Shown: positions 3,067-55,883, counted from the stretch's first letter. The stretch: 64,000 nt of DNA from Myxococcales bacterium (GCA_020633335.1 JACKDU010000002.1:314730-378729); one strand, 5' to 3'. The notes: a model not told the origin generated them from the letters alone. Made by a program: numbers and translations.

Positions 3067-3078
3067 GCGGGCCCGAGC

Positions 3079-3498
3079 CTAGGAGGCGGCGGCCCGGATC
3101 TGGGCCTCGAGCCAGCGCTGCTCGTTGACCAGCTTGCGGTGCTCGATCGCATCGATCGGCCCGCTGTCCTTGCCGAGCTCGGCGTTGACCTCCTTGAGGC
3201 GGTCATGGACCTTGGTCAGCTCGATCTCGTCGACGGTGAGCGCCCGCTCGGTCAGGATCGACACGCGACCGTCGCGGGTGACCTCGAGGAAGCCAGCGCC
3301 GATCGCCAGCCGCTGCGAGGTGTCCTTCTCGCGGAAGCGGATCACGCCCGGGATCAGCGGGGTGATGAAGGGGACGTGATCCGGGAGGACGCCGAGCTCA
3401 CCGGCGATCCCCGGGACCTCGACCCCCGGGACCTCGAGGCCGCTGCGCTTGGCCCCCTGCGGGGTGAGGATGTCGAGGGTGATGGTGCTCTGAGCCAC
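3079..3498 (-). CDS. atpC: F1 ATP synthase epsilon subunit
   Basis: The 139-aa product MAQSTITLDILTPQG... matches the epsilon-subunit N-terminal beta-sandwich. It is the last gene of the atp cluster. Confidence 0.9.
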   Translation of the reverse strand: MAQSTITLDILTPQGAKRSGLEVPGVEVPGIAGELGVLPDHVPFITPLIPGVIRFREKDTSQRLAIGAGFLEVTRDGRVSILTERALTVDEIELTKVHDRLKEVNAELGKDSGPIDAIEHRKLVNEQRWLEAQIRAAAS

Positions 3499-3537
3499 GG
3501 GCTTGCTCCCTTCCTACGGGCGGGCCGAGGGCCCGGA

Positions 3538-5157
<1,620 letters not shown>

Positions 5158-38817: not shown

Positions 38818-38942
38818 CGCCGCACGCCCCACGTGTGCAGGGATCGCGGCCCGGCTGTGACCGACTCGTGACCCGGGGCTCCGCGCGCCAGGGTACGATG
38901 GCGGCGCCGCGCGAGTCCGCGCGGGCCCCCGAGGAGCGCGAG

Positions 38943-40604
38943 ATGGCCGAGCGACGCGATGATCTGAGCAAGCCCAGGACGACCACCGACCTCCCCCGCC
39001 GGGACTTCCTCCGCCTCTCCCTCGGCGGCGCCGCCCTCCTCGCCGGCTGCGGCGACGACGAGATCGGCGACTCGGCGAGCGCCGGCACCAGCGGCTCGAC
39101 CGGCGAGACCACCGGGGGGAGCGGCGGCGCGTCGACCTCGAACGGCACCAGCGAGACCAGCGGCGGCGCCAGCGAGAGCGCCGGGAGCACCACCGGCGAC
39201 GGCACCTCGACCGGCGATCCCTCGACCAGCGGGAGCAGCGGCGACACCTCGACCACCGCGGTCGACACCGCGACCAGCGGAACCACGACCGAGGGCGACA
39301 CGACCACAGGCGACGAGCTCTGCGCCGGCGAGGTGATCGCCTTCGACCCCGAGGCGATCCCGCTCGACGACGAGACCTTCCCGCTCGCGGTGATGGCCGG
39401 CGAGATGAAGCCGACCTCGATCATGGTCACCGTCTTCATCGCCGACGGCGCGCCGAAGACCCTCCGAATCTGGCGCAAGAGCCAGGAGGACGGCTTCGTC
39501 GAGCTGATCCACGAGGCGCCGATGATCCCGACCCCCGAGGGCTACGCGAAGCTCGCGGTCGAGGGGCTCTGCCCCGGCACCTGGTACTACTACGGCTTCT
39601 TCGCCGGCGATCCCGACGCCTTCACCGGCCGCTCGATCATCGGCGAGGTCCGGACCGCGATCGCCGACGACGCCCTCGAGACCCTGACGATCGCCATGAC
39701 CGCCTGCAACGGCTCGTCGCTCGACTGGCCGGCGCTCGAGGTCACCGCCGACGAGTACTACGACGTCTTCATCCACCTCGGCGACATGGCCTACAACGAC
39801 GGCGCCGAGACCCTCGAGGAGTACCGCGCGAGCTGGAAGAAGTACCTCTCGGTCGCCGGCTTCAAGCTCGCCTACGCCCGCGCCGGCCTCTACGCGACCT
39901 GGGACGATCACGAGATCGACGACAACAGCAACTTCGATCGCGAGACCATGGACCCGCAGGAGCTCCAGCGCCGGCAGAACGCGATGGACGCGTACTTCGA
40001 GCTGGTGCCGATCGACGCGGAGGGGCCGAATTACCGGCTCTGGCGCTCCTTCCGCTGGGGGATGACGGCCGAGATCATCGTCCTCGACTGCCGCTACGAG
40101 CGGCGGCCCTCGCAGAAGCTCTACATCAGCGCGCTGCAGATGATGTTCCTCAAGGACCGCCTGCTCAACTCGCCCTGCCACTTCAAGATCGTCATGAACT
40201 CGGTGCCGATCACCAACATGCCGCTCCCCTGGGACATCGCGGCGAACGACCGCTGGGAGGGCTACCCGGGGCAGCGCAAGGAGGTGATGGACTTCATCAC
40301 CCAAAACGACATCACGAACGTGTGGTTCCTCTCCGGGGACTTCCACGTCTGCTTCGTCTCCCGCCTCGAGCCCTCGGGGAGCGCGCTCGCCAACCGCACC
40401 CGCGAGATCGCGGTGACCGGCGGCAACGAGAACCCGATCCCCGAGATCCTCACCCAGCTGAACCAGCCCCAATTCGACTACGGCACCCACAAGGCGCGGG
40501 GCTGCGTGCTGACCTTCGATCCGATGGCCGACGCGGTGAACGTCCGCTTCATCGATCCGCAGAGCGGCGTCGACCTCTACAACAAGTCGCTGACCCAGGC
40601 CTGA
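38943..40604 (+). CDS. phoD: PhoD-like alkaline phosphatase/phosphodiesterase with a Tat signal and lipobox
   Basis: Twin-arginine motif PRRDFLRLSLGGAALLAGC. PhoD metallophosphatase core (HLGDMAY, WDDHEID). The ATG at 38943 has GAGGAG upstream. Confidence 0.8.
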   Translation: MAERRDDLSKPRTTTDLPRRDFLRLSLGGAALLAGCGDDEIGDSASAGTSGSTGETTGGSGGASTSNGTSETSGGASESAGSTTGDGTSTGDPSTSGSSGDTSTTAVDTATSGTTTEGDTTTGDELCAGEVIAFDPEAIPLDDETFPLAVMAGEMKPTSIMVTVFIADGAPKTLRIWRKSQEDGFVELIHEAPMIPTPEGYAKLAVEGLCPGTWYYYGFFAGDPDAFTGRSIIGEVRTAIADDALETLTIAMTACNGSSLDWPALEVTADEYYDVFIHLGDMAYNDGAETLEEYRASWKKYLSVAGFKLAYARAGLYATWDDHEIDDNSNFDRETMDPQELQRRQNAMDAYFELVPIDAEGPNYRLWRSFRWGMTAEIIVLDCRYERRPSQKLYISALQMMFLKDRLLNSPCHFKIVMNSVPITNMPLPWDIAANDRWEGYPGQRKEVMDFITQNDITNVWFLSGDFHVCFVSRLEPSGSALANRTREIAVTGGNENPIPEILTQLNQPQFDYGTHKARGCVLTFDPMADAVNVRFIDPQSGVDLYNKSLTQA

Positions 40605-40619: not shown

Positions 40620-43600
40620 TCACTTGCGCGGCGGCAGCTTGGGGAGGCGCGGGAGCTTGAGCGGGCCCTTGGCCTCCGGCTTGCTCGGCGCGGGGGCCTT
40701 CGGCGGAGGCCGCGGCGGCCCGCCCTCCTCGACGCGCGTCAGCATGCTCTCCGAGATCTCCTCGATCTCCTCGATCGCGTCCTCTGCCGGCGGCTGACGA
40801 CGGGCCGAGGGCGGCGCGAAGGAGCCGCCGATCCCGACGTCAGGCAGCGTCGTCGGCGTCCGGATCGCCACCCGCACGGTGCGATCGGGGGAGGTGCTTG
40901 TGCGCGAGCCGGGCTCGACGCGGATCGGCTCCGAGCGGCTCGGTTGGGGCGCCGCAGGACCGGACGACGGTCGAGCGCTCGCCGGCTTCGGTGACGGCGC
41001 CGGCGCGGGCACGACCGGCGTCGCCGCGACGCTCGGCTTCGCCAGCGTCGACGAGGCCGGAGACGCGCTCTTCGACGCCGCGGTCGACGTCGACGGTGAG
41101 CCGCCGAGGAGCGGAGCGACCGGCGTCGCCGCTGGCGCGCCGAGCTTGCCCGGCGAGCGCGAGGTCGGCGGAGCACCCAGCGTCGGCGCCACGGGCGTCG
41201 CCACACTCGGCGGCGCGCCGATCGTCGGCGCCGCCGGCGTCGCCACCGGCGCACCGATCGTCGGGACCACCGGCGTCGCGCGGATCGTCGGCGCGACCGG
41301 CGTGACGAGCGGCGCAGCGATCGTCGGCGGCGCGCCGATCGTCGGCGGCACCGGCGTCACCGACGGCGCGCCGATGCGCCCGGCGCTCAGCGGCGGCATC
41401 CCGAGGAGACCGCCGACCGTCCGGGTGTCGCTCGCAGGCGGGCCGAGCGGCGCGGGCTCCCGCACCGTGTCCTCCTGCCGCGGCCGAGGGGCGGGCTCCC
41501 GCACGGTGTCCTGCGTCGGCGGCCGCGGTGCTGGCTCCCGCACGGTGTCCTGCCGGGTGGTCGACACCGCCACGATCGGCGCGGTCCCGGAGTCGTCGGC
41601 GAAGATGTCGACGTAGTCCTCCTCCGGCGGCGCGGCGAGATCCGGCGCGACGAGCCCCTCCGGGTTGGTCGCCCCCGGATCGACCTCGACGCCGACGCCG
41701 TCCTCGGGCCACTCCTCATCCTCGGGCCACTCCTCGCCGCCGCTCAGCGTCTCGACCAGGATCCCGCTGGCGTCGAGGCCGAGCGAGTGCTCGACCGGCT
41801 CGGAGTGCCAGCCCTCGTCGCCAGCGGGGGCCGGCGCGGGCCGACGCACCGTCTCCTCGGAGCCGATGCTCGGCGGCGGCCGGCGCACGGTGTCCTCGGT
41901 CGGTCCAGACGTCGCCTCGGGCTCGGGTTCGACGATTTCGAAGTCGCCGGAGGCGGCAGCGACCGGGGCCGCGGTCGCGCTCTCGTCGACCGCAATGTCG
42001 ATGTCAAAGCTCTCCGTCGCCGCGGGCGCAGGCGCAGGCGCACTCTCCCGAGACTTCGCGAGCTTGGCCTCGAGGGCCGCCCGCGCCCGCGCGGCGACGG
42101 AGCCGAGGTCCCGCATCGTCGTCGCCCGCCGCTTCGGGGCGTCCGCCGGCGGCCCGAGATCGCCGAGCTCGACCTCCTCCTCCTCGAAGGTGATCGTCAG
42201 ATCGAGCGCGCTCTCGCCGGCCGGCGGCTCGTCGATGTCGTCGATGTCGATGTCGATCGCGCTCGACGAGGACCCGCTCCGCTGGAAGTAGCGCCCCGAG
42301 GTGTCGGCCGTCGCGTGCCTGTCCGTTCGGACATCTTGCCGCCCCTGGCCGGCGGAGGCGACGTTCTGGGGGGCGCCCCCCCGCCGCCCCTGCGCGTGGG
42401 CCTGGGTCTGCGGGTTGACCACGTTGGGCTGCTGGGCGTAGCGCGGCTGCGCCGGCCGCGCCTGCACCTGATTGAGCGGATTGCCCGCCTGCGGGCGCGC
42501 CTGCACCTGATTGAGCGGATTGGCCGACTGCCGCCCCTGCACCTGGTTGAGCGGGTTGTAGGCCTGCGGCTGCGCCTGCTGCTGCTGCCAGCCGCCGCCG
42601 TGGACCTGGTTGAGCGGGTTGCCGCCGGCGGCGTAGGGGATCGGGCTCGGCGACGGGGTCGCCACGTGCGGCTGGTAGGCCATCGGCCGCGGCGTCGGCG
42701 TCGCCGCGGCGGTGCTCGACGACATCGGCCCCGACGGCGTGTAGACGGCGGCCATCTGCCCGAGGTTCGGGCGGTAGAAGATCGACGGCGGCATCCCCCG
42801 CTCCTCGATCATCTCGGCGAGGATGTCCTGGACGACAGCCTGCATCACCGCCGCGCTCGGCCAGCGATCTTCGCGGTTGAACATCAGCGCCCGATCGACG
42901 ACCTCGATCACCCGCGGGCTGAGGTGGGGCGCGAGCGTCCGCAGCGAGCGGGCCTGGGACTTCGCCGCCCGGATCAGGCGCTCGACCACCGAGCCGTTCA
43001 TCCCGTGGACGGTCTCGCCGGTGAGCGCCTTGAACATCGTCGCCGCGACCGCCCAGAGGTCGGCGCGCCCGTCCATGTCGTCGTTGCTCGCCCGCGCGGC
43101 CTCCGGCGAGACGTAGGCGACGGTGCCGAAGACGATCTCGGAGGAGTGGACGCCGGCGACCGCCGGCAGCTCGCGGACCCGGGCGAGGCCGAAGTCGAGG
43201 AGCTTCACGATCCCCGCGCGGGTCAACATGATGTTGGCCGGCTTGATGTCGCGGTGGATGATGTCCTTCGCGTGGGCGGCCGCGAGGACGTCGAGGAGCT
43301 GGTCGGCGATGCTGAGGACGTCGATCTCGCGGAGGACGTGCTCGCGGGCGAGGCAGCTCTCGAGCGACTCGCCGTCGAGGAGCTCCATCACCAGGTAGAC
43401 GTCCCCCTCCTCGGTCGCGTCGTCGTCGATCACCGTCACCGAGCCGGGGTGACCGACCAGGTTGGCGGCGTAGCCCTCCCGGAGGAAGCGGGTGCGCGCC
43501 TGAACGTCCGAGACGTACTTCGGGTGGAGCATCTTGATGGCGGCCCGGGTCCCGTTGCGGTGGGTCGCCTCATAGACCGCGGCCATCCCGCCCACGTCGA

Positions 43601-43673
43601 TCAGACGGTCGAGATGGTACTTGCCGCGGAGGACCTTCCCCACGCGCTCCCTTGCAAGCAGCGTCAGATCCAT
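40620..43673 (-). CDS. Ser/Thr protein kinase (catalytically intact) with a roughly 700-aa low-complexity C-terminal region containing tandem repeats
   Basis: AIKMLHP, HRDIKPANIM, DFGLAR and APE motifs. Repeats NPLNQVQ(G/A)RP x5, DTVREPAPRP x3 and PTIGAP/ATPVAPT x about 8. Confidence 0.85.
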   Translation of the reverse strand: MDLTLLARERVGKVLRGKYHLDRLIDVGGMAAVYEATHRNGTRAAIKMLHPKYVSDVQARTRFLREGYAANLVGHPGSVTVIDDDATEEGDVYLVMELLDGESLESCLAREHVLREIDVLSIADQLLDVLAAAHAKDIIHRDIKPANIMLTRAGIVKLLDFGLARVRELPAVAGVHSSEIVFGTVAYVSPEAARASNDDMDGRADLWAVAATMFKALTGETVHGMNGSVVERLIRAAKSQARSLRTLAPHLSPRVIEVVDRALMFNREDRWPSAAVMQAVVQDILAEMIEERGMPPSIFYRPNLGQMAAVYTPSGPMSSSTAAATPTPRPMAYQPHVATPSPSPIPYAAGGNPLNQVHGGGWQQQQAQPQAYNPLNQVQGRQSANPLNQVQARPQAGNPLNQVQARPAQPRYAQQPNVVNPQTQAHAQGRRGGAPQNVASAGQGRQDVRTDRHATADTSGRYFQRSGSSSSAIDIDIDDIDEPPAGESALDLTITFEEEEVELGDLGPPADAPKRRATTMRDLGSVAARARAALEAKLAKSRESAPAPAPAATESFDIDIAVDESATAAPVAAASGDFEIVEPEPEATSGPTEDTVRRPPPSIGSEETVRRPAPAPAGDEGWHSEPVEHSLGLDASGILVETLSGGEEWPEDEEWPEDGVGVEVDPGATNPEGLVAPDLAAPPEEDYVDIFADDSGTAPIVAVSTTRQDTVREPAPRPPTQDTVREPAPRPRQEDTVREPAPLGPPASDTRTVGGLLGMPPLSAGRIGAPSVTPVPPTIGAPPTIAAPLVTPVAPTIRATPVVPTIGAPVATPAAPTIGAPPSVATPVAPTLGAPPTSRSPGKLGAPAATPVAPLLGGSPSTSTAASKSASPASSTLAKPSVAATPVVPAPAPSPKPASARPSSGPAAPQPSRSEPIRVEPGSRTSTSPDRTVRVAIRTPTTLPDVGIGGSFAPPSARRQPPAEDAIEEIEEISESMLTRVEEGGPPRPPPKAPAPSKPEAKGPLKLPRLPKLPPRK

Positions 43674-44534: not shown

Positions 44535-45449
44535 TCATGCGCATTCAAAGATCGCGCGCGCGCGATCGAAGCGCCGCTCCCGGAGATCTCCCTCGTCGAT
44601 CGTGAAGAAGATCCGCCCGGCGTCCCCCCACATCATCCCGGTCCGCGGGAAGCCGCTGCCAACGGGTGGATCCGAGTCGATCTGCAGGAGGAGGCGCTCG
44701 CCCTGGCGGAGCCCCTGGCTCTCGATCAGCTCGGGGTGACCGAGGAGGTGGTGACGCGGCGCCGCGCGCCCCTGACCCTGGGCGGCGGCGACCTCGAGGG
44801 CCAGGCGATCCCAGGCGTCGACGTGCTCCTCGATCACCTCGGGATCGAGCCCGGCGGCGATCAGGCGGCGCGGCGTCGGCAGGGTCCACACGCGCACCGG
44901 CGCCACCGGGGCGCCGCGGTAGACCTCGTCGGCCGCGAGCTCGGAGGGGCGGATCGTGTAGCGGAGCGCGTCGCGGTCGACGTCGGCCCAGAGCACCTCC
45001 GCGAGCGCCCCCTGATCGGGGTAGAGATCGAAGACCTCCATCGCGTCGGTGTAGAAGAAGAAGAGGAAGCCCCGCTCCGGGAGGAGCCCCGGCGCGACCA
45101 GCGGGGCGACCTCGGCGAGATCGATCTGGGCGACGAAGGAGAGCGGATGGCCGACATGGCGGGCCCAGCGACGGGCGTTCGGCGAGCTCGGGAGCCCGCG
45201 AAAGGTCGGCCAGCGAACATCGTCCGGGAGGTCCGGGAGGCCGCCGATCCGCGAAGCGCCGCTCGGTCGGTCGCTCGCAGCGAGCTCCTCGTCCTCGTCG
45301 TCGGCGACGCTCGTCGGAGATGGCCGCGGGACCAGGCGGAGCGCGGGCTCGAGGAGCTCGATCATGCCGTCGACGAGCGCCCGCGGCAGGGTCGCGCCCG
45401 CGCGCAGGCATGCGTCGATGGCTCGCGCCTTGAGGTCGTCAGCGTCCAT
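44535..45449 (-). CDS. DUF1963 (YwqG-like) family protein
   Basis: C-terminal MMWGDAGRIFF-type motif and the overall YwqG-like pattern. Confidence 0.65.
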   Translation of the reverse strand: MDADDLKARAIDACLRAGATLPRALVDGMIELLEPALRLVPRPSPTSVADDEDEELAASDRPSGASRIGGLPDLPDDVRWPTFRGLPSSPNARRWARHVGHPLSFVAQIDLAEVAPLVAPGLLPERGFLFFFYTDAMEVFDLYPDQGALAEVLWADVDRDALRYTIRPSELAADEVYRGAPVAPVRVWTLPTPRRLIAAGLDPEVIEEHVDAWDRLALEVAAAQGQGRAAPRHHLLGHPELIESQGLRQGERLLLQIDSDPPVGSGFPRTGMMWGDAGRIFFTIDEGDLRERRFDRARAIFECA

Positions 45450-45744
45450 GATCGAGGGGAGCCCGCGCGCCGGGGCGCGGGGCCTTGCGCCAGCCGCAGC
45501 GAGGCGAGCGCGAGCGCCGGGGAAGATCTGTGCTCCGGTGGTCCAGCAAATCCAGGGGCCATGGTGTAGTCGCGCAGGCCATCGCGCGCAAGCGCGGCGA
45601 GCGACGCGCCCGGGCCGCTCGCCCCGCTCGCGCTTGGAGCCAGGCGCGCGCGGCCCTCAGGGGCCGGCGGCCCCCCACAATTGCGCAGCGTGCCGCCGGC
45701 GCGGTTGCCTCGCTCCTCGCCAGGCGTGAGACTATTTCCTCCGC

Positions 45745-47966
<2,222 letters not shown>

Positions 47967-48185: not shown

Positions 48186-49355
48186 ATGCGCACCTCCCAC
48201 ATGATCTACATCGGCGCCGCCCTCACCTCGCTCATGTGCGGCACCCTGATCGCCAACGCGATCTGGCCGCTCCCCCAGCCGATGAGCGCCCCGCAGACCG
48301 CCGTCTCCGTCGCCGGCCCCCACAACCTCGCCCCCGCCCCCTCCGAGCGCCCGCGGATCGACGTCGTCTTCGTCCTCGACACCACCGGGTCGATGGGCGG
48401 CCTCATCGACGGCGCCAAGCAGACGATCTGGTCGATCGCCAACCGCCTCGCCTCGGGCGAGCCGCGGCCGGAGATCCGGGTCGGCCTGGTCGCCTACCGC
48501 GACCTCGGCGACGAGTACGTCACCCGCTCGTTCCCGCTCACCAGCGACCTCGACACGGTCCACGGCCAGCTCAGCGGCCTGGTCGCGGCCGGCGGCGGCG
48601 ACGGCCCCGAGCACGTCAACCAGGGGCTCAGCGACGCGATCCACGGGATGTCGTGGGATCGCGGCGATCGGGTCCTCCGCCTGATCTTCCTGGTCGGCGA
48701 CGCGCCGCCCCACGACGACTACGCCGACAACATCACCAGCGAGTCGATCGCCCGCGAGGCCAAGGCCGCCGGGATCACGATCAACACGATCCGCTGCGGC
48801 GAGTGGGCCGAGACCGCCACCGCCTGGCAGAAGATCGCCCAGCTCGCCGGCGGCAAGATGACGACGATCGCCCAGGACGGCGGCGTCCAGGCGCTCGCCA
48901 CCCCCTTCGACGACGAGCTCGCCGAGCTCAACCGCTCGCTCGCGGCGACCTCCCTCGGCTGGGGGAGCGCGACCGACAAGTCGCGGGCCTACCGCAAGGC
49001 GAAGGCCCGGGCCTCGCTGAGCGGCGAGTCGGCGGCCGCGGCCGCCTCCTACTCCGCGAAGGCCGGGCGCCTCCACGACGAGGACCTCGTCACCGCCCTC
49101 GAGGAGGGTCGGATCGCCCTCGATCGCGTCGACAACGCGGCCCTCCCCGAGGTCATGCAGGCGATGACCCTCGACCAGCAGAACGCCTACGTCGACGACC
49201 TCAAGAACCAGCGGGCGCTCCTCAACGAGCGGATCCTCGAGACCTCGCGGCGCCGCGACGCCTACTTCGAGGACAACAAGGCCGCGGGCGGCTTCGACGG
49301 CGAGGTCGTCGACATGCTCCGGCAGCAGGCCGACGAGATCGGCGTCGCCTACTAG
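48186..49355 (+). CDS. von Willebrand factor type A (vWA) domain protein with an N-terminal TM or signal segment
   Basis: MIDAS motif DxTxS in VVFVLDTTGSMGG, plus downstream T and D residues (LVGDAPPHDD). Confidence 0.8.
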   Translation: MRTSHMIYIGAALTSLMCGTLIANAIWPLPQPMSAPQTAVSVAGPHNLAPAPSERPRIDVVFVLDTTGSMGGLIDGAKQTIWSIANRLASGEPRPEIRVGLVAYRDLGDEYVTRSFPLTSDLDTVHGQLSGLVAAGGGDGPEHVNQGLSDAIHGMSWDRGDRVLRLIFLVGDAPPHDDYADNITSESIAREAKAAGITINTIRCGEWAETATAWQKIAQLAGGKMTTIAQDGGVQALATPFDDELAELNRSLAATSLGWGSATDKSRAYRKAKARASLSGESAAAAASYSAKAGRLHDEDLVTALEEGRIALDRVDNAALPEVMQAMTLDQQNAYVDDLKNQRALLNERILETSRRRDAYFEDNKAAGGFDGEVVDMLRQQADEIGVAY

Positions 49356-49566: not shown

Positions 49567-52500
49567 ATGCACCTGCAAGCTTCGTCCGCGCGCGCTGCCG
49601 ACCTCCCCGTCGATCCCTCGTGCGCCTCGATCGGCTATCGTCAGCCGGTGGTGAACAACGACTCAGGCAGAGGCGAGGCGGGCGCGCCGGGGCTCGGCGC
49701 CGTCGTAGCGAGGAAGTACACGCTCATCGAGGATCTCGGCCCGAGCGACTCGGGCCACGACTACGTCGCCGAGCAGACGACCCTCCGCAAGCGGGTGATC
49801 GCCACGATCCTCGACCCCGAGCTGGCGACCAACGAGGTCTACGCCGCCCGGATCCTCCGCGAGGCCCGGGTCTTGTCGCTGGTCCGCCACGACAACGTCG
49901 CCCGCCTCATCGACTACGGCCAGACCCCGGATCGCGGGATCTACCTGATCCGCGAGCTCCTCGAGGGCTCCGACCTCGGCAGCCACCAGGCCGGGACCAA
50001 GCGCTTCCCGTGGCCGCGGGCGAAGGCGCTGATCCTCCAGGTGATCGCCGGCCTCCGGGCGGCCGCCGGCAAGGACATCATCCACGGCGGGATCCGCCCG
50101 AGCGTCGTCTACATCACCCCGGGCCCCGGCGGCGCCGAGCGGGTCAAGCTCATCGGCTTCGGCCTCATGCCGGCCTCGCGGATCGATCTCTTCAGCGGCG
50201 AGGAGCTGATCGAGGTCGCCGAGTTCGCGGCCCCCGAGCAGGGCGAGGGCAAGGCGGCCGACGGCCGCGCCGACATCTACTCGGTCGGCGTCCTCCTCTA
50301 CAACCTCCTCACCGGCTCCGTCCCCTTCACCGGCAAGGAGCCCCACCAGATCCTCACCCAGCACAACATCGCCCCGCCGCCGCCGCCGCGGAACATCGCC
50401 CCCGACGCCAACATCCCGCCCGCGGTCGAGGCGCTGGTCCTCCGCTGCCTGGCCAAGAAGCCAGACGACCGCCTCCCCGATCTCCTCACCCTCGAGCGCG
50501 AGGTCCGCGAGATCGACGACGAGGGGCGCTCGAAGAAGAAGGGGCCGCCGCCGCGGGTGAGCACCGCCGGTGGCCTCGCGCCGGCGAGCCCGCTCGGCGA
50601 TCAGCCGACCCGCGACTCCGCGCTCTTCGTGTCGATCGAGGCGCTCCAGGGGATGCTCGCGTCAGCCTCCGATCCCGACGCCCAGCTCGGGATCCTCGAC
50701 CGGATGGAGAAGGCGCTGGCGGGCCTCGCGGGCGCCGATCCCGACTCCGACGAGGCGGTCCGCTGGCGCGAGTGGATCCGCCGGGCGCGCGACTACGCCT
50801 ACTTCCAGCTCGGCCAGCGCCACCTCGCCGCCGAGCGCTGGCGCGACCTCGAGGGGGTCTACCGCCGCCGCCTCGAGCTCGCCCCGAGCGAGGAGGACCT
50901 CCTCGCGCTCAAGGGCGCGCTCGCCGGCCTCTACCTCAACAACCTCCTGAGCTACGAGAAGGCGATCACCCTCTTCCGCGAGCTCGTCGAGGCCCAGCCG
51001 GACTCGATGGAGAGCCACCTCGGCCTCGCCCGGGCGCTCGAGCGCCACGGCGACGTCGAGGAGGCGATCCCCCACTACGAGCGCTTCATCGAGCTCTGCC
51101 CCGACGCGACCCGCGGCGCCGAGGAGCTCGCCCACCTCGGCGACCTCCTCCACAACAAGATGAGCGACACCGACGCGGCGATCACCCGCCTCTTCCAGGC
51201 GACGGAGCTCGTCCCCGGCCACCTCCCCGCGCTCAAGCTCCTCGCCGAGCTCTTCCGCGCCCGCCACGAGTGGCTCGAGCTCGCCGAGGTCCTCGAGACG
51301 ATCGTCGAGCACACCCCGAGCAACTACGAGAAGATCGAGCGGGCGACCGAGGCGGGCTTTTTGTGGATCGACAAGCTCCAGGTCAAGGACCGGGCGATCC
51401 CGATGTTCGCCAAGGTCGTCGAGCTCGATCCCGAGAACACCAAGGTCGGGACGATCCTCGGCAAGATCTACTACGAGAACAAGAACTACGTCGCGGCCGC
51501 GCCGATCTTCGACGCGCTCGTCCGCAAGATCGACAACCTCGGCCTCCGCCCGACCAGCCAGGTCGGCGTCCTCGTCCGCGCCGCCCAGGTCGCGCGCGCG
51601 GTCGGCTCGCTCAACAAGGCGAGCAAGCTCTACAAGCGGGCGCTCGAGCTCGACCCCGAGAGCAGCCACGCGCTCCTCGGCCAGGCCGAGCTGGCGATGA
51701 CGCGCGGCGCCTGGGACGAGGCCCGGGTCGCCTACGAGAAGCTCCTCCCCCGCCGCAAGGACGACGACAAGTCGGCGATCCACGTCAAGCTCGCCGAGAT
51801 CGCGATCGCCCAGGAGCGCCCCGACATCGCGATCAACGAGTTCAAGGCGGCGATCGCCGACGGGCCGAAGAACCTCCACGCCCACGACGGCCTCATCGCC
51901 GTCTACCGCGAGCGCAAGGACTGGCGCTCGCTCCTCAAGGCGCTCCAGGGCAAGCTCCCGCAGCTCAAGGGCGACGCCAAGGCCGACGCCTTCGTCGAGA
52001 TCGGCGGCCTCTTCCGCGACCGCCTCGGCGAGCCCGATCGGGCGATCGCCGCGTTCCAGCGGGCCCACGAGCTCCGCCCCAAGGACCAGACCCTCCTCCA
52101 CACGCTCCTCGAGCTCCAGACCGCCGCCAAGCGCTGGACCGACGTGATGCCGATCCTCGACGAGCTGATCGCGATCGAGGCCGATCCGAAGCGGCGCGCG
52201 AAGTACCTCTACACCTCGGCGGCGCTCCAGCGCGACGAGGTCGGCGACGAGGCGGCGGCGATCGAGCGCTTCGACCTCGTCCTCCGCGACGACCCCTCCT
52301 TCCTCAAGGCCTTCCAGGCGATCGACACCCTGATCACCAAGCGCAAGGACTGGCGGGCGCTCGAGCGGGCCTACCGCAAGATGATCAACCGCCTGCCGGC
52401 CGACGACACCTCGCCGCTCAAGCAGCTCCTCTGGCACAACCTCGCCGAGATCTACCGCTCACGCCTCGGCGACTTCCGCTCGGCCGCCAAGGCGCTCGAG

Positions 52501-53616
52501 GTCGCGATCAGCCTCGACCCGAGCAACTTCCAGCGTCAGCTCATGCTCTCCGAGCTCTACGCGATGCTGATGAAGGAGGATCCGGCGAACTTCACGGAGT
52601 CGCTGATCCGCAGCCACAACACGCTCATCCGCCTCGATCCGTCCTACTACAAGAGCTACCACCAGATCTATAACATCTACCGGATGCAGAGCGCGCTCGA
52701 CAAGGCATACTGCGTCGCCCGCACGCTGATCTTCCTCAAGCAAGCGACCGACGAGGAGACCCGCTTCTATCAGAGCGGGCCGCCGGCGGTCTTCCGCCAG
52801 GCCCGCGGCCGCCTCAGCGACGACGTGCTCCGCCGCTACATCCTCCCCGGCGATCAGGATCCGACGGTGACGACGCTCCTCGGCCTGGTCGCGCCGGCGC
52901 TCGCCTCCTGGCGGGCCAAGCCGCCGCCGCCCTCGCTCCGCGGGAGCGAGCCGATCGACACCGCCGAGAGCCCGTCGATCGCCGCCCAGGCCCACGCCTA
53001 CGTCTGCCGGGTCCTCGGCGCGACCCAGCCGGCGCTCTACTTCCAGCCGAGCGAGCCCGGCGACCTCAGCCTCCACATCGTCCGCCGCCGCGGCGGTGAG
53101 ATCGAGCAGCTTGCGATCGCCCACGGCGCGCTCCTCCGCGAGCGCGAGGACGGCGAGGTCGTCTTCGAGGTCGCCCGCGTCCTCGCCAACCTCTACCCGC
53201 CGCACCAGGCCTTCCTCCTCCTCGAGCTCTCCCCCCAGAACCTGAAGCAGCTCCTGGTCGCCTGCTCGGTGCTCGCCGAGCGCGGCGCCAACGAGGGCGG
53301 CCAGGGGGTCGCGGCGATCACCGGCGAGCTCGCCAGCCGCCTGACGCCGGCGGCGCTGGAGCAGGTCAAGGGGCTCGCCCGGCAGCTCAGCCAGACCGAC
53401 GTCAAGGTCTGGGCGCGCGCGGCCGCGATCGCCAACTACCGCCTCGGGCTCCTCCTCTGCAACGACCTCGACGCCGCCGCCCACGCGATCGCGGCCGAGC
53501 AGCGCTCGAGCGGCCAGAACATCAACGGCAAGGACGCGCTCAAGGAGCTGATCGTCTACAGCGTCAGCGAGGCCTACTTCGAGGCGCGGCGCAGCATCGG
53601 CCTCGCGGTCGGCTAG
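49567..53616 (+). CDS. Pseudokinase (Ser/Thr kinase fold lacking catalytic residues) fused to about 1000 aa of TPR repeats
   Basis: Kinase-like region with degenerate motifs: no beta3 Lys (RVIATIL), HRD replaced by HGG (IIHGGIRPSVV) and DFG replaced by GFG (KLIGFGL). APE (AAPEQ) and subdomain IX (DIYSVGVLLYNLLTG) are retained. Confidence 0.75.
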   Translation: MHLQASSARAADLPVDPSCASIGYRQPVVNNDSGRGEAGAPGLGAVVARKYTLIEDLGPSDSGHDYVAEQTTLRKRVIATILDPELATNEVYAARILREARVLSLVRHDNVARLIDYGQTPDRGIYLIRELLEGSDLGSHQAGTKRFPWPRAKALILQVIAGLRAAAGKDIIHGGIRPSVVYITPGPGGAERVKLIGFGLMPASRIDLFSGEELIEVAEFAAPEQGEGKAADGRADIYSVGVLLYNLLTGSVPFTGKEPHQILTQHNIAPPPPPRNIAPDANIPPAVEALVLRCLAKKPDDRLPDLLTLEREVREIDDEGRSKKKGPPPRVSTAGGLAPASPLGDQPTRDSALFVSIEALQGMLASASDPDAQLGILDRMEKALAGLAGADPDSDEAVRWREWIRRARDYAYFQLGQRHLAAERWRDLEGVYRRRLELAPSEEDLLALKGALAGLYLNNLLSYEKAITLFRELVEAQPDSMESHLGLARALERHGDVEEAIPHYERFIELCPDATRGAEELAHLGDLLHNKMSDTDAAITRLFQATELVPGHLPALKLLAELFRARHEWLELAEVLETIVEHTPSNYEKIERATEAGFLWIDKLQVKDRAIPMFAKVVELDPENTKVGTILGKIYYENKNYVAAAPIFDALVRKIDNLGLRPTSQVGVLVRAAQVARAVGSLNKASKLYKRALELDPESSHALLGQAELAMTRGAWDEARVAYEKLLPRRKDDDKSAIHVKLAEIAIAQERPDIAINEFKAAIADGPKNLHAHDGLIAVYRERKDWRSLLKALQGKLPQLKGDAKADAFVEIGGLFRDRLGEPDRAIAAFQRAHELRPKDQTLLHTLLELQTAAKRWTDVMPILDELIAIEADPKRRAKYLYTSAALQRDEVGDEAAAIERFDLVLRDDPSFLKAFQAIDTLITKRKDWRALERAYRKMINRLPADDTSPLKQLLWHNLAEIYRSRLGDFRSAAKALEVAISLDPSNFQRQLMLSELYAMLMKEDPANFTESLIRSHNTLIRLDPSYYKSYHQIYNIYRMQSALDKAYCVARTLIFLKQATDEETRFYQSGPPAVFRQARGRLSDDVLRRYILPGDQDPTVTTLLGLVAPALASWRAKPPPPSLRGSEPIDTAESPSIAAQAHAYVCRVLGATQPALYFQPSEPGDLSLHIVRRRGGEIEQLAIAHGALLREREDGEVVFEVARVLANLYPPHQAFLLLELSPQNLKQLLVACSVLAERGANEGGQGVAAITGELASRLTPAALEQVKGLARQLSQTDVKVWARAAAIANYRLGLLLCNDLDAAAHAIAAEQRSSGQNINGKDALKELIVYSVSEAYFEARRSIGLAVG

Positions 53617-53732: not shown

Positions 53733-54098
53733 TCAGTCGATGATCAGCTCGACCTGCGGCCAGATCTTCTTGAGCGTCGAGAGCGTCCGCCCCTGCCAGG
53801 GCTTGGCGGCCGCCCCGAGGATCGTGATCGTCATCCGCCCGGCCTTGCGCACCTCGATCAGGAAGGCGCCGATCGTCCCGATCCCCGACGAGTTGAGCAT
53901 CTCGAGGTTACGGAAGTCGAGCGTGAGGGTCCCAAGGCCGCTCTGGTGGGCGGCCCGCAGGAGCTCGAGGATCGCCCCGTAGTCGCGGGGCGAGCGGAGG
54001 CGGAGGTGGCCCTCGAAGCGGACCCGACGCTCGGTCGACTCGAAGGCGACGCTGTATTCCTTGTCTTCGACGATCATGGGCTCTCCCTCAACGGCCAA
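53733..54098 (-). CDS. STAS-domain anti-sigma-factor antagonist-like protein
   Basis: SpoIIAA-like LTLDFRNLEMLNSSGIGTIGAFLIEVRKAG with a conserved Ser. Confidence 0.75.
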   Translation of the reverse strand: MAVEGEPMIVEDKEYSVAFESTERRVRFEGHLRLRSPRDYGAILELLRAAHQSGLGTLTLDFRNLEMLNSSGIGTIGAFLIEVRKAGRMTITILGAAAKPWQGRTLSTLKKIWPQVELIID

Positions 54099-54149: not shown

Positions 54150-55883
54150 CTAGCGGCGGGTCGGCGGGAGGAGCGAGGCGACCCGCTGGGGGCCGGTGCG
54201 CATCACCTGCGGCGTCGTCCGCAGGACGAGGATAAACGAGAGGTCGTCGGCCGCGACCGCGCGCCCCTGGAAGTCGGCGAGCGCCCGCCGGAGCTCGCCG
54301 GCGAGGCGGGTCGCCGAGGCGTCGCGGGTGTGGCGGCCGACCTCGCCGACCAGCGAGCTCAGCCCCTCGACCCCGAGCATCCGATCCTGCTCGTTGAGGA
54401 GCTCGGAGAGGCCGTCGGTGAAGAGGCAGAGGACGTTGTCGCGGGGGAGCTGATCGCGGGTGACGACGATCTCCTCGTTGACGTCGAGGAAGCCGAGCGG
54501 CGCGTGATCGTGGGTCTCGATCTCGCGGGCGTAGCCGTTGGCGCCGGCGACCAGCGGCGACGGGTGGCCGCAGTTGACGTGCTCGATCGCCCCGGTCTCG
54601 GGGTCGATCACCAGCGCGCACATCGTCACGAAGGACGCCGCCGGCAGGGTCTCGCAGAGGTAGCGGTTGAGCGAGCGGACCAGGGCCGCGAGGCCGAGGC
54701 CCTCGTGACCGAGGACGTGGACCGTCGTGTGGAGGCCGGCGGCGATCAGCGCGGCCTCGAGGCCCTTGCCGCACACGTCCATCACCGTCAGGAGCACGCG
54801 GCCGTCGCGGAGCGGGAGCGCGTCGACGTAGTCGCCGCCGACCCACTTGCACGCCTCGAAGCCGAAGCCGATGTCGAGCTGACCGAGGTGGAAGTCGGCC
54901 GGCACCAGGCGGGTCTGGATGTCGTGCGCCCGCTCGAGCTCCTCCTCGAGGATCGCCTGCTCCTGGGCGGCCTTGCGGGCGACCCAGGCGGCCTCGGCCT
55001 GGCGGTAGAGCTCGGCCGCCAGCGACACCAGCGCGAGCCACTCGGCGGTCGCGTAGTTGCTCGGGAAGGTGACGTAGAGGACGTTGAGCGCGTCGTCGCC
55101 GCCGCCGAGCGGCACCGCGACCGCCGACATCGACTGGACGACCACCGAGAGCTTGAGGAGATCGGTGTTGCCGCCGCCCGAGGCCGCGGTCGAGGCGATC
55201 ACCGGCGTGCCCGAGGCGAGGACGGCGCGGACCACCGTCCGCGAGATATGGGGGACGTCGCGGCCGCCGGTGAGCGACGGCGGCCCGAGGAGCTCGGGAT
55301 CGCCGTCGCCGCTGCGGGCGACCCGGAGGGCCATCGCCGCGGTCCCGCGGAGGTCGCGGCCGATCATCAGCTCGCAGAGCGCGTGGAGGCGAGCGGCGTC
55401 GTCCTCGGTCGCCAGGAGCTCGGCCGAGAGGGAGACCAGGCGGGAGAGCTGCGAGGCGTCGATCTTCGGCGCGCCGAGGTCGCGGAGCGAGCGGACCGCC
55501 CCGACCGGGCTGTCGACCATCGTCAGCCGGGTCAGGGAGCCCTCGGCGGTGATCGGCTTGCGCGGCTGCAGGCCGCGCCCCTCGGCGGGCGCCCGGACAT
55601 AGGTCAGGACGTAGTCCTCGACCTGGATCGCGTCGCCGTAGGCGAGGCGGTGGGCGGTGATCTGCTTGCCATTAACCGCCGTTCCGTTGCGGCTGCCGAG
55701 GTCGCGGACCCACCAGCGCCCGGCCTCGTCGCGGAGGATCTCGAGGTGCTGGCGCGAGACCGTGTCGCTCTCGAGCACGACCTCGACGTCGGGGGAGCGG
55801 CCGGCGACCATCCGGTTGCCGACCATCGGGGCCACGCGGAGGAGGGTGTCCCCCCGGCGGATCTGGAGGTAGCCGTCACTCAC
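54150..55883 (-). CDS. FHA-GAF-PP2C (SpoIIE/RsbU-like) serine phosphatase
   Basis: N-terminal FHA (GRSPDVEVVLESDTVSRQHLEI...SRNGTAVNG), central GAF-like region, and C-terminal PP2C motifs GGDYVD, DVCGKG and FTDGLSE. It sits immediately upstream of the STAS gene on the same strand. Confidence 0.8.
   Translation of the reverse strand: MSDGYLQIRRGDTLLRVAPMVGNRMVAGRSPDVEVVLESDTVSRQHLEILRDEAGRWWVRDLGSRNGTAVNGKQITAHRLAYGDAIQVEDYVLTYVRAPAEGRGLQPRKPITAEGSLTRLTMVDSPVGAVRSLRDLGAPKIDASQLSRLVSLSAELLATEDDAARLHALCELMIGRDLRGTAAMALRVARSGDGDPELLGPPSLTGGRDVPHISRTVVRAVLASGTPVIASTAASGGGNTDLLKLSVVVQSMSAVAVPLGGGDDALNVLYVTFPSNYATAEWLALVSLAAELYRQAEAAWVARKAAQEQAILEEELERAHDIQTRLVPADFHLGQLDIGFGFEACKWVGGDYVDALPLRDGRVLLTVMDVCGKGLEAALIAAGLHTTVHVLGHEGLGLAALVRSLNRYLCETLPAASFVTMCALVIDPETGAIEHVNCGHPSPLVAGANGYAREIETHDHAPLGFLDVNEEIVVTRDQLPRDNVLCLFTDGLSELLNEQDRMLGVEGLSSLVGEVGRHTRDASATRLAGELRRALADFQGRAVAADDLSFILVLRTTPQVMRTGPQRVASLLPPTRR

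What the first reader, a model, noticed from the sequence alone, without database searches (positions are those of the whole stretch)
49567..53616. TPR-fused pseudokinase: beta3-Lys, HRD-Asp and DFG-Asp all replaced
The kinase-like domain keeps the fold landmarks (glycine-rich loop remnant, alphaC Glu, APE, subdomain IX) but has RVIATIL instead of VAIK, IIHGGIRPSVV instead of HRDLKPxN, and GFGL instead of DFG. It cannot phosphorylate and is probably a scaffold or phospho-dependent adaptor linked to a huge TPR platform. Bacterial pseudokinases are poorly studied.
Basis: seen in the sequence. Interest (0 to 1): 0.6.

Follow-up and report, generated by a model that had tools for sequence, protein, structure and literature searches.

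The report
Dead kinase fused to GltI-like scaffold
This gene encodes a kinase-shaped domain that has lost all four catalytic residues, fused to a copy of the tail end of GltI, the giant scaffold protein of the myxobacterial gliding motor, so it most likely works as a non-enzymatic adaptor rather than a kinase.

Summary
ORF 49567..53616 (+, 1349 aa) is a real gene (GC3 0.95-0.99) with a confident Hanks-type kinase fold (Pfam Pkinase E=5e-22; model pLDDT 91; TM up to 0.89 to PknA). Four independent alignments agree: beta3 Lys->Thr80, HRD->HGG, catalytic-loop Asn->Val180, DFG->GFG, while alphaC Glu99, APE and subdomain IX are kept.

Of 21 short-form genes compared (the window's plus 20 orthologs, all Nannocystaceae and related MAGs), none keeps the full catalytic set. 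Cultured Nannocystis lack only the HRD Asp. The window's subclade has decayed further, with variable residues at the dead positions and a conserved fold.

They align colinearly (40% identity, E=0) with the last ~1000 residues of GltI/AgmK, the ~4000-aa cytoplasmic scaffold of the Agl-Glt gliding machinery. This includes a C-terminal domain with no Pfam or NCBIfam model that matches 5162 cluster representatives.

Both GltI and this paralog tend to sit beside FHA-domain genes; here the neighbour is an FHA-PP2C phosphatase with a small STAS-like regulator.

Best reading: a non-catalytic adaptor. It is a new variant of a known kind and of moderate interest.

The parts
49567..53616 (+). Whole gene: pseudokinase, linker, then GltI-like TPR array and C-terminal domain (1349 aa plus stop)
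   Evidence: ORF; GC3 0.95-0.99 in this frame; full-length orthologs at 44-70% identity.
49567..49692 (+). N-terminal extension (residues 1-42); the start codon is uncertain, with alternative GTG starts at 49648 and 49651
   Evidence: Ortholog matches begin at query residues 26-48. The only in-frame alternative start codons are at residues 28 and 29. Model pLDDT is below 50 for the first 8 modelled residues (residues 31-38).
49693..50508 (+). Hanks-type pseudokinase domain (about residues 43-314)
   Evidence: Pfam Pkinase 53-303, E=5e-22; phmmer to StkP/PknA/PknB, E down to 2.5e-28; AF2 model pLDDT 90.9; Foldseek to PknA with TM 0.79-0.89, E=3e-23.
49735..49758 (+). Degenerate glycine-rich loop LGPSDSGH (residues 57-64)
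   Evidence: Aligned to GxGxxG of StkP and PknB. An Asp inside the loop is conserved across most of the short-form family.
49792..49812 (+). Beta3 strand RVIATIL, with Thr80 (49804..49806) in place of the ATP-binding Lys
   Evidence: Orthologs have either K or T at this position.
49852..49869 (+). AlphaC motif ILREAR, with Glu99 retained
   Evidence: L97, R98, A100 and R101 are invariant and E99 nearly invariant across the ten full-length sequences of alignment A4.
50077..50109 (+). Catalytic loop IIHGGIRPSVV: HRD->H173-G174-G175, Lys->Arg177, Asn->Val180
   Evidence: Val at the Asn position occurs only in this sequence and in the L022/L025 pair; L040/L058 have Cys there.
50149..50166 (+). LIGFGL: DFG->G197-F198-G199 (the metal-binding Asp is lost, the R-spine Phe is kept)
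50227..50241 (+). APE motif (AAPEQ, residues 221-225) at the end of an acidic activation segment with no Thr
   Evidence: Ser210 and Glu212 align to PknB Thr171 and Thr173.
50509..50643 (+). Variable linker ending in the conserved motif QPTRDSALFVSIE (motif 50602..50658; Thr348)
   Evidence: P347, T348, D350, S351, A352 and F354 are invariant across the ten full-length sequences of alignment A4. The motif is conserved in nearly all short-form genes, and the Thr is replaced by Glu in L022 and L025.
50644..52767 (+). TPR/helical-repeat array (residues 360-1067), homologous to GltI residues ~3049-3760
   Evidence: Pfam TPR families between 411 and 990; colinear BLASTP alignment to N. exedens GltI.
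52768..53613 (+). GltI-type C-terminal domain (residues 1068-1349), a mixed alpha/beta domain with no family model
   Evidence: AF2 model pLDDT 92.9. No Pfam, NCBIfam or PDB sequence match. Its profile finds 5162 cluster representatives, always at the C-terminus. It is homologous to the GltI C-terminus.
54150..55883 (-). Convergent neighbour: FHA plus SpoIIE-type PP2C phosphatase (577 aa), the candidate partner
   Evidence: Pfam FHA E=2.8e-18 and SpoIIE E=7e-37. Syntenic in L010, L011, L012 and L014; immediately upstream and co-directional in L022 and L025.
53733..54098 (-). Convergent neighbour: small slr1659-superfamily (STAS-like) regulator (121 aa)
   Evidence: NCBIfam NF047705, E=7e-31, 106.8 bits against a cut-off of 100; weak Pfam STAS, E=0.006; 81-85% identical in syntenic loci.
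48186..49355 (+). Upstream same-strand neighbour: vWA-domain protein (389 aa)
   Evidence: Pfam VWA_4 and VWA. Syntenic at full length in L009, L010, L011 and L014, with a partial hit at the contig end in L012; absent in L013 and in cultured Nannocystis.
40620..43673 (-). Canonical Hanks kinase (1017 aa) about 6 kb upstream, a possible active partner
   Evidence: Pfam Pkinase E=6e-36. Syntenic kinases are present in L001, L002 and L004.

Best explanation
The gene encodes a cytoplasmic, non-catalytic adaptor built from two parts. (1) An N-terminal Hanks-type kinase domain keeps its fold but has lost the ATP-anchoring Lys, the catalytic Asp, the catalytic-loop Asn and the metal-binding Asp, so it is a pseudokinase. 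(2) A ~1000-residue module (TPR array plus a distinct C-terminal domain) is a paralog of the C-terminal quarter of GltI/AgmK, the giant cytoplasmic TPR scaffold of the myxobacterial Agl-Glt gliding (focal-adhesion) machinery.

Shown here: the fold, the four substitutions, their persistence and drift across the 21 short-form genes compared, the GltI homology, coexistence with a true GltI gene in all 20 comparison genomes that carry the short form, and the enrichment of FHA-domain genes next to both paralogs.

Inferred: the GltI-like module docks protein partners the way GltI is predicted to, including FHA domains. Here the candidate is the neighbouring FHA-PP2C phosphatase, which is paired with a small STAS-like regulator. 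The dead kinase head would serve as a kinase-shaped interaction surface, either binding or being phosphorylated by a real Ser/Thr kinase such as the one at 40620..43673. The protein would then couple Ser/Thr phospho-signalling to a GltI-type scaffold without transferring phosphate itself.
For: Fold and substitutions.

Frame.

Family-wide loss: none of the 21 short-form genes keeps K+D+N+D. Cultured Nannocystis species have K, HR[AGVM], N and DFG, so they lack only the catalytic base. The window's subclade additionally lost the DFG Asp (G/A/N/S) and sometimes the Lys.

Core under constraint: more than 50 invariant positions in the domain across ten full-length sequences sharing 44-71% identity with the window protein.

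GltI homology: residues 360-1349 against N. exedens GltI 3049-4046, 40% identity, 10 gaps in 999 columns, E=0. The long-form genes are 3977-4061 aa and sit directly after a GltG-like gene and a TPR lipoprotein gene. In a related cluster (L090), GltG matches at E=2e-111 and GltE at 3.5e-26. [quoted passage not shown]

Coexistence: all 20 comparison genomes with the short form also carry the long form.

FHA adjacency: 33 of 48 GltI loci and 4 of 14 short-form loci have an FHA gene within 3 kb downstream, against 0.066 expected. In L022 and L025 the FHA-PP2C ortholog (48-49% identity) lies immediately upstream on the same strand, 31 bp from the gene in L022.
Against: No experiment or docking was possible, so lack of ATP binding, the FHA interaction and any link to gliding are all inferences.

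The FHA-PP2C gene is convergent in the window, so it is not co-transcribed. It is absent within 10 kb in 9 of 16 informative short-form loci, including all cultured Nannocystis and L013.

The loci compared are phylogenetically related, so the enrichment counts are not independent events.

The window carries no glt genes nearby.

The GltI-FHA contacts in the literature are AlphaFold predictions and do not depend on phosphorylation.

The conserved linker Thr348 is Glu in exactly the two loci with the tightest FHA-PP2C linkage. That argues against a simple pThr348-FHA model.
Confidence: 0.6

Rival explanations
1. It is an atypical active enzyme. The domain would still bind nucleotide and catalyse phosphotransfer or another reaction (AMPylation, glutamylation) using non-canonical residues, as WNK, CASK, SelO or SidJ do.
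For: Several 'pseudokinases' have turned out to be active (review PMC8141879). Lys75 in the beta2-beta3 turn, Arg177 and alphaC Glu99 are conserved. Many heads in the wider kinase-TPR-CTD family keep K, HGD, N and DxG (21 of 85), and one source labels a member Bud32-like.
Against: In this protein all four catalytic positions are lost. The replacing residues are small or hydrophobic (T, G, V, G) and differ between close orthologs, so no alternative catalytic constellation is conserved. Lys75 is also present in orthologs that keep the canonical Lys, so it is not a compensatory replacement. The Gly-rich loop carries Ser, Asp and Ser where glycines are needed.
Confidence: 0.07
2. The kinase-like head is a decaying relic. 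It is functionally irrelevant and on its way to loss, and only the GltI-like TPR-CTD module matters.
For: The catalytic motifs decay progressively along the clade. Many CTD-bearing relatives have no kinase-like head at all (66 of 147 long proteins).
Against: The head is present, full-length and in frame in all 21 short-form genes across genera, at 32-67% identity. Dozens of core positions are invariant, the R-spine His and Phe are intact, and the fold model is confident. GC3 in the head (0.95-0.98) matches the rest of the gene. A neutral relic would have accumulated indels and stop codons.
Confidence: 0.1
3. It is a decoy or regulator of the gliding machinery. The GltI-like tail would compete with GltI for the same docking partner at focal-adhesion complexes, with the pseudokinase head making that competition respond to Ser/Thr signalling. 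This is a more specific version of the best explanation.
For: The tail is 40% identical to the GltI tail right to the last residue. It coexists with GltI in every comparison genome that carries it. Both genes have FHA-domain neighbours.
Against: The partner of the GltI C-terminal domain is unknown. There are no glt genes in the window. The CTD family is far larger (5162 representatives) than the number of gliding clusters would require, so most members probably act elsewhere.
Confidence: 0.2
4. It is an artefact: a mis-called frame or an assembly error hides a normal kinase.
For: None was found.
Against: The coding-phase signal is continuous over 4 kb. Four alignment methods agree. Independent assemblies of related organisms show the same substitutions, HGG and a lost DFG Asp.
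Confidence: 0.01

Closest known systems
GltI / AgmK (MXAN_4863), the cytoplasmic TPR scaffold of the Myxococcus xanthus Agl-Glt gliding machinery
   Same: Residues 360-1349 are colinear with the last ~1000 residues of Nannocystaceae GltI (40% identity, E=0), including the non-TPR C-terminal domain. Both are predicted to be cytoplasmic. Both genes are often followed by a convergent FHA-domain gene.
   Different: This protein is 1349 aa rather than about 3800-4100. It lacks the N-terminal ~3000 residues of TPRs and carries a pseudokinase head instead. It is not in a glt cluster and coexists with a true GltI, so it is a paralog, not an ortholog. The neighbouring FHA protein is a PP2C phosphatase rather than a GAF-cyclase.
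M. tuberculosis MviN (MurJ) pseudokinase domain with the FHA protein FhaA
   Same: Both are bacterial Hanks-type pseudokinase domains with degraded catalytic motifs, associated with an FHA-domain protein. In the MviN case the pseudokinase is phosphorylated by PknB and then recruits FhaA (cited in PMC8141879; placed in family ActPs3).
   Different: MviN's domain is attached to a membrane flippase and has a shortened activation loop. Here the domain is soluble, full-length and fused to TPRs plus the GltI-type domain. No phosphorylation or FHA binding has been shown here.
Kinase-TPR bacterial STK families (PknG, Myxo1, Strep1, Strep2, GN-NS1) of the 2025 bacterial STK atlas
   Same: The architecture is a Hanks-type domain followed by C-terminal TPRs. 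Myxo1 is Myxococcota-specific.
   Different: Those five are described as canonical (active) families. This protein and its orthologs lack catalytic residues, and their TPR region is specifically GltI-like with an extra C-terminal domain. Membership of Myxo1 could not be tested.
The seven named bacterial pseudokinase families (ActPs1-3, GLW, CP1, DYD, DLHK)
   Same: It shows the loss of all three canonical catalytic-triad residues seen in ActPs1-3, GLW and part of CP1.
   Different: None of the seven is described from Myxococcota or with TPRs. Their hallmark motifs (for example GLW replacing HRD) are not present here, where the motif is HGG.
The ~1750-1815 aa kinase-like/TPR/CTD proteins of Polyangia and other Myxococcota (for example P0011, P0014, P0121)
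   Same: They share the three-part architecture and the same C-terminal domain.
   Different: They share only 22-29% identity with this protein and have about 420 more residues of TPRs. Their heads show HG[DNASH] and mostly DxG and have lost the alphaC Glu. The window's head is closer to canonical kinases (31-38% identity) than to these heads (24-33%), which suggests a separate fusion event.

Membership tests
Hanks-type (eukaryotic-like) protein kinase fold, Pfam PF00069 | Bilobal kinase fold recognised by the family profile above the curated threshold | tested here: met
   78.9 bits against a cut-off of 31.7, E=5e-22. The AF2 model has pLDDT 90.9 with canonical secondary structure. TM is 0.79-0.89 to PknA.
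Catalytically competent Hanks-type kinase | Beta3 Lys (VAIK) that anchors the ATP phosphates | tested here: not met
   Thr80 occupies this position in four alignments.
Catalytically competent Hanks-type kinase | HRD catalytic Asp and catalytic-loop Asn | tested here: not met
   The loop reads H173-G174-G175 ... V180.
Catalytically competent Hanks-type kinase | DFG Asp that binds the metal | tested here: not met
   The motif is G197-F198-G199.
Pseudokinase (sequence definition) | Kinase fold lacking at least one of VAIK-Lys, HRD-Asp and DFG-Asp | tested here: met
   All three are lost, and the catalytic-loop Asn as well. The state is conserved: none of the 21 short-form genes is complete.
Pseudokinase (biochemical definition) | No phosphotransfer, with or without nucleotide binding | not testable with these tools
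   This needs purified protein, nucleotide-binding assays and kinase assays.
GltI/AgmK orthologs | C-terminal TPR segment plus C-terminal domain homologous to GltI | tested here: met
   40% identity over 999 columns, extending to the C-terminus of both proteins. The CTD profile hits GltI-position proteins at E=7e-77.
GltI/AgmK orthologs | Giant (~3800-4100 aa) all-TPR protein | tested here: not met
   This protein is 1349 aa with a kinase-like head. GltI genes in the same family of genomes are 3977-4061 aa.
GltI/AgmK orthologs | Encoded in the glt G1 cluster downstream of gltG | tested here: not met
   The window neighbours are vWA, an slr1659-like regulator, FHA-PP2C, a kinase and PhoD, with no Glt matches. 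True GltI loci do have GltG upstream.
GltI/AgmK orthologs | Recruited to gliding focal-adhesion complexes | not testable with these tools
   This needs localisation and genetics.
Myxo1 bacterial STK family (kinase plus C-terminal TPR) | Family-specific residue constraints in the kinase domain | not testable with these tools
   The architecture matches, but the atlas's family models are not available here.
Named bacterial pseudokinase families (ActPs1-3, GLW, CP1, DYD, DLHK) | Family hallmark motifs, taxonomy and associated domains as described | tested here: inconclusive
   This is a comparison with the descriptions only. None mentions Myxococcota or TPRs, and the text search found no occurrence of either term in the review. 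No family profiles were available to score.
MviN-FhaA type phospho-pseudokinase/FHA complex | FHA-domain partner genetically associated with the pseudokinase | tested here: inconclusive
   The FHA-PP2C gene is adjacent in the window and in six of the 15 other informative loci, in two different arrangements, and absent in nine.
MviN-FhaA type phospho-pseudokinase/FHA complex | Phospho-Thr on the pseudokinase protein that recruits the FHA domain | not testable with these tools
   A conserved Thr348 exists in the linker motif QPTxDSA, but it is Glu in L022 and L025. Phosphoproteomics is needed.
Partner-switching module (neighbouring genes) | PP2C/SpoIIE phosphatase plus STAS-type antagonist plus GHKL anti-sigma kinase | tested here: inconclusive
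   The SpoIIE domain is met (E=7e-37). The small neighbour is slr1659-superfamily with only a weak STAS match (E=0.006). No HATPase_c kinase was found among the neighbours scanned.
M48 / zincin metallopeptidase (considered for the C-terminal domain) | Detectable homology to Peptidase_M48, and an HExxH motif | tested here: not met
   There is no Pfam hit in 21 members and no PDB sequence hit. hhalign against HtpX gives probability 0.13% (the HtpX sequence was written from memory and verified as M48 by Pfam, E=1.6e-39). The domain has no HExxH.

The most novel reading that the evidence does not exclude
Myxococcota would possess a large, undescribed class of kinase-headed GltI paralogs. In these, a degenerate Hanks-type domain is wired to the GltI-type TPR plus C-terminal-domain module, and the TPR-CTD module is a general docking platform for FHA-domain effectors (PP2C phosphatases, cyclases, GltG). 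The protein in this window would be the fully dead end-member. It would couple Ser/Thr phospho-signalling and a PP2C/STAS-like switch to gliding-type scaffolds or to another envelope machine.
Probability: 0.25. Interest if true: 0.7.

Novelty: new variant of a known kind. Interest (0 to 1): 0.5.

Why it matters
Bacterial pseudokinases are only now being catalogued. The 2025 atlas and review list seven families, none from Myxococcota, even though myxobacteria have the largest bacterial kinomes.

This locus defines a conserved Nannocystaceae pseudokinase family that shows a gradient of decay. Cultured Nannocystis species have lost only the catalytic base, while the window's protein has lost all four catalytic residues. 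That makes it a natural series for asking what a bacterial kinase fold does once catalysis is gone.

It also ties the family to a concrete cell-biological system. The rest of the protein is a paralog of the tail of GltI, the least understood cytoplasmic component of the gliding focal-adhesion machinery.

Finally, it exposes a very large C-terminal domain family (5162 cluster representatives) that has no Pfam or NCBIfam model. The recurring FHA-domain neighbours give a directly testable hypothesis for what the GltI-type module binds.

Tried and rejected
1. Frame or assembly artefact. Rejected on the codon-phase GC profile and on the same substitutions appearing in independent assemblies.

2. 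C-terminal domain as a degenerate M48/zincin peptidase. This was my reading of a strand-helix motif 'AFxxARHLAYxRP' and a 'W..D..ADRaG' motif. It is not supported: no Pfam hits in 21 members, no PDB sequence hits, and hhalign against HtpX gives probability 0.13%. No M48 genes were found in the fetched loci to build a richer profile.

4. The search for related loci with the CTD alignment failed because no stretch was conserved enough. I replaced it with the full-length ortholog alignment.

5. Genomic context of the distant ~1770-aa kinase-TPR-CTD relatives (P0014, P0024). No conserved neighbourhood was found.

6. The 'AgmK' and 'Bud32' names on relatives are automatic annotations and were not used as evidence.

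7. A literature search on slr1659 gave nothing usable. Perez et al. 2008 (the myxobacterial kinome paper) is not held.

8. dN/dS was not attempted. At 60-70% amino-acid identity and GC3 near 0.97, synonymous sites are saturated and compositionally constrained.

9. Paralogy between the FHA-PP2C neighbour and the FHA-GAF-cyclase next to GltI. Only the FHA domain is shared (38% over 72 aa).

Full report
**1. The observation**

The window is high-GC DNA (about 72% GC). The closest relatives of the gene in question are all Nannocystaceae (Myxococcota), at up to 70% identity. The exact protein is not in the 15-billion-protein collection.

ORF 49567..53616 (+) encodes 1349 aa. In its reading frame, third-position GC is 0.95-0.99 along the whole 4 kb and second-position GC is 0.38-0.53.

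Pfam places a Pkinase domain at residues 53-303 (E=5.3e-22) and many TPR families between about 410 and 990. NCBIfam's best match is the PknB/Stk1 kinase model over residues 44-325 (E=3.8e-47).

**2. The catalytic positions**

Four methods give the same assignments: phmmer alignments to solved StkP and PknA, two MAFFT alignments with orthologs and PknB, and an HMM alignment.

| Canonical position | Residue here | Motif in this protein |
|---|---|---|
| Beta3 Lys | Thr80 | RVIATIL |
| HRD | His173-Gly174-Gly175 | IIHGGIRPSVV |
| Catalytic-loop Lys | Arg177 | IIHGGIRPSVV |
| Catalytic-loop Asn | Val180 | IIHGGIRPSVV |
| DFG Asp | Gly197 | LIGFGL |

The glycine-rich loop reads LGPSDSGH. Several features are retained: alphaC Glu99, the R-spine His173 and Phe198, APE (222-224), subdomain IX Asp236 and subdomain XI Arg302 (exact coordinates).

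The positions that align with the PknB activation-loop phospho-threonines carry Ser210 and Glu212, in an acidic, Thr-free segment.

An AlphaFold2 model built on 21 sequences is confident (pLDDT 90.9, pTM 0.88) and has the canonical order of kinase secondary-structure elements. Its best PDB matches are M. tuberculosis PknA and PknB (E=3e-23; TM 0.79 normalised to the query and up to 0.89 normalised to the target).

**3. Is it a stable pseudokinase or a one-off?**

Full-length orthologs exist (P0001-P0010, 44-70% identity). A scan of one genome per species found 20 short-form genes, giving 21 with the window's. They include cultured Nannocystis exedens, N. pusilla, N. punicea, N. radixulma and N. 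bainbridge.

The motif table shows that none of the 21 keeps the full Lys/Asp/Asn/Asp set.
- The cultured Nannocystis species keep Lys, catalytic-loop Lys..Asn and DFG, but have HR[A/G/V/M], so only the catalytic base is gone.
- The window's subclade has HGG (or HGD), has lost the DFG Asp (G, A, N or S) and has either K or T at beta3.
- The window protein also has Val for the catalytic-loop Asn. Only L022 and L025 share that Val; L040 and L058 have Cys there.

Across ten full-length sequences sharing 44-71% identity with the window protein, dozens of core positions in the head are invariant.

Variable residues at the former catalytic positions, combined with a conserved fold, are the signature of a fold retained for a non-catalytic role. 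They argue against two rivals. A cryptic alternative active site would need conserved substitutes. A neutral relic would have accumulated indels and stop codons.

**4. What the rest of the protein is**

The last ~280 residues have no Pfam, NCBIfam or PDB sequence match. They nevertheless fold confidently (pLDDT 92.9) into a helical domain with a three-stranded sheet.

A profile of this domain finds 5162 cluster representatives at E<=0.001 among 1.84 billion, and 1401 at E<=1e-30. The domain sits at the extreme C-terminus of the host protein, with a median of one residue between the domain end and the C-terminus. Host proteins range from about 300 to 3970 aa.

The genome scan separated two paralog groups:
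- the short form, with a kinase-like head;
- a long form that matches only residues ~357-1349 of the window protein.

Gene calling shows that the long-form genes encode 3977-4061 aa proteins. They lie directly downstream of a ~700-aa protein with an N-terminal FHA domain and an AgmX/PglI-type C-terminus, and of a TPR lipoprotein gene.

In a related cluster (L090), the FHA protein matches NCBIfam GltG over its full length (E=2.3e-111) and the upstream TPR protein matches GltE (E=3.5e-26). This is the gene order of the M. xanthus G1 gliding cluster, gltD-E-F-G-H-I-J (PMC3169522), so the long form is GltI/AgmK.

GltI is described as a giant cytoplasmic TPR protein recruited to gliding focal adhesions. 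[quoted passage not shown]

A direct BLASTP comparison aligns window residues 360-1349 with N. exedens GltI residues 3049-4046. The alignment shows 40% identity and 60% positives, with 10 gaps in 999 columns, and runs to the last residue of both proteins.

All 20 comparison genomes that carry the short form also carry a long form. The window protein is therefore a paralog of the GltI tail, not a truncated GltI.

**5. The wider family**

Most are ~1750-1815 aa proteins from Polyangia and other Myxococcota, with HG[D/N/A/S/H], mostly DxG, and no alphaC Glu.

The window's head is more similar to canonical kinases (31-38% identity) than to those heads (24-33%). Its tail is more similar to Nannocystaceae GltI (36-40%) than to their tails (22-29%).

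This suggests, by inference only, that the Nannocystaceae short form arose by a separate fusion of a canonical kinase domain to a duplicated GltI tail, followed by catalytic decay.

**6. Neighbourhood**

- Upstream on the same strand is a vWA-domain gene (48186..49355).
- Downstream and convergent are a 121-aa slr1659-superfamily regulator (NF047705, above its cut-off; only a weak STAS match), a 577-aa FHA plus SpoIIE-type PP2C phosphatase, and a conserved 600-aa unknown.
- A canonical 1017-aa Hanks kinase lies about 6 kb upstream on the opposite strand.

This arrangement is conserved in L010, L011, L012 and L014. It is not conserved in L013 or in cultured Nannocystis.

In L022 and L025 the FHA-PP2C ortholog (48-49% identity over its full length) lies immediately upstream on the same strand, 31 bp from the pseudokinase gene in L022. 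A 1285-aa kinase and an ECF sigma factor-like gene are nearby. A second, different arrangement that preserves adjacency is better evidence for a functional link than inherited synteny alone.

GltI genes themselves are followed by a convergent ~550-aa FHA-GAF-cyclase gene.

Counting across loci, an FHA-domain gene lies within 3 kb downstream of 33 of 48 GltI genes and 4 of 14 short-form genes, plus two immediately upstream. The background rate in the remaining flanks is 0.066 per 3 kb. These loci are related, so the counts are not independent. The two FHA proteins share only the FHA domain.

**7. Mechanism**

I commit to a non-catalytic adaptor. What is shown and what is inferred are listed under the best explanation.

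Its closest functional precedent is the mycobacterial MviN pseudokinase, which PknB phosphorylates and which then recruits the FHA protein FhaA (cited).

A conserved linker motif, QPT(x)DSA(L/M)FYS, follows a variable low-complexity stretch and offers a candidate phospho-site at Thr348. However, this Thr is Glu in L022 and L025, which is a point against a simple pThr348-FHA model.

I put high confidence (about 0.85-0.9) on 'pseudokinase' and on 'GltI-tail paralog'. I put about 0.35 on the specific FHA-PP2C partnership.

**8. Comparison with what is known, and novelty**

Myxobacterial kinomes are known to contain pseudokinases: 11 of 99 STPKs in M. xanthus (PMC6791715 citing Perez 2008).

Kinase plus C-terminal TPR is a recurrent bacterial architecture, seen in PknG, Myxo1, Strep1, Strep2 and GN-NS1. 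The seven named bacterial pseudokinase families (ActPs1-3, GLW, CP1, DYD, DLHK) include none from Myxococcota and none with TPRs.

I found no paper linking GltI/AgmK to a kinase-like fusion or to a pseudokinase.

The finding is therefore not a new kind of thing. It is an undescribed family and architecture: a dead kinase head on a GltI-type tail. It comes with a usable evolutionary series and a testable partner hypothesis. Interest is moderate.

**9. Dead ends**

My idea that the C-terminal domain is a degenerate M48 or zincin peptidase failed every test available.

The fold searches of that domain were swamped by the TPR residues I had included in the model. The afdb50 library was unavailable.

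The distant ~1770-aa relatives show no conserved neighbourhood.

Noticed in passing
window 52768..53613, and 5162 database representatives: The GltI-type C-terminal domain (~280 aa) has no Pfam or NCBIfam model, although a profile of it finds 5162 50%-identity cluster representatives (1401 at E<=1e-30). It always lies at the C-terminus of its host protein, in hosts of about 300 to 3970 aa, including GltI/AgmK. It looks like a candidate new domain family.
   Followed up: partly
window 46120..46946, within overlapping ORFs 45745..47301 and 45681..47966: There are in-frame coding tandem repeats: 27 nt x 8.7 copies (HHPLNQPAA) and 24 nt x 24.3 copies (PFAQPQQQ). The codon-phase signal switches frame near 46900. 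Downstream, 47292..47966 encodes a TM segment, a polyproline (TonB_N-like) stretch and a helical C-terminus. This may be one frameshifted gene or two genes; I did not resolve it.
   Followed up: partly
window 53733..54098 (-) and 54150..55883 (-): A small slr1659-superfamily regulator (weakly STAS-like, with an NSSGIG motif) is paired with an FHA plus SpoIIE-type PP2C phosphatase. This looks like a partner-switching pair, but no GHKL anti-sigma kinase was found among the neighbours scanned.
   Followed up: partly
window 40620..43673 (-): A canonical Hanks-type Ser/Thr kinase (1017 aa; GxGxxA and AIK motifs present) lies about 6 kb upstream. Kinases of 798-947 aa occupy the same position in ortholog loci L001, L002 and L004.
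   Followed up: no
window 56023..57825 (-): A conserved 600-aa protein has no Pfam match and sits next to the FHA-PP2C gene. It is syntenic at 64-71% identity in L010, L011, L012 and L014.
   Followed up: no
L030 16229..17947, L065 16315..17964, L036 16132..17784, L090 22171..23790: GltI genes in Nannocystaceae and a related MAG are followed by a convergent ~550-aa FHA-GAF-adenylyl/guanylyl cyclase gene. An FHA-domain hit lies within 3 kb downstream in 33 of 48 GltI loci. I did not find this described in the gliding papers I read.
   Followed up: partly
L022 8042..13918 and L025 8043..13900: In two MAGs the FHA-PP2C gene lies directly upstream of and co-directional with the pseudokinase gene (31 bp apart in L022). 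Their pseudokinases share Thr at beta3, Val at the Asn position and GFG with the window protein, despite only 39% overall identity, and they have Glu instead of the conserved linker Thr. This may be convergent decay linked to the FHA-PP2C association.
   Followed up: partly
proteins P0011-P0033, P0121-P0265 (not in the window): There is a large set of ~1750-1815 aa Myxococcota proteins with a kinase-like head (HG[D/N/A/S/H], mostly DxG, alphaC Glu lost), a long TPR array and the same C-terminal domain. About a quarter of all the kinase-like heads tabulated (21 of 85) keep K, D, N and D and might be active. One source labels a member Bud32-like.
   Followed up: partly
window 44535..45449 (-) and 38835..40604 (+): A DUF1963-family protein and a PhoD-like phosphatase are part of the block that is syntenic with the ortholog loci.
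   Followed up: no
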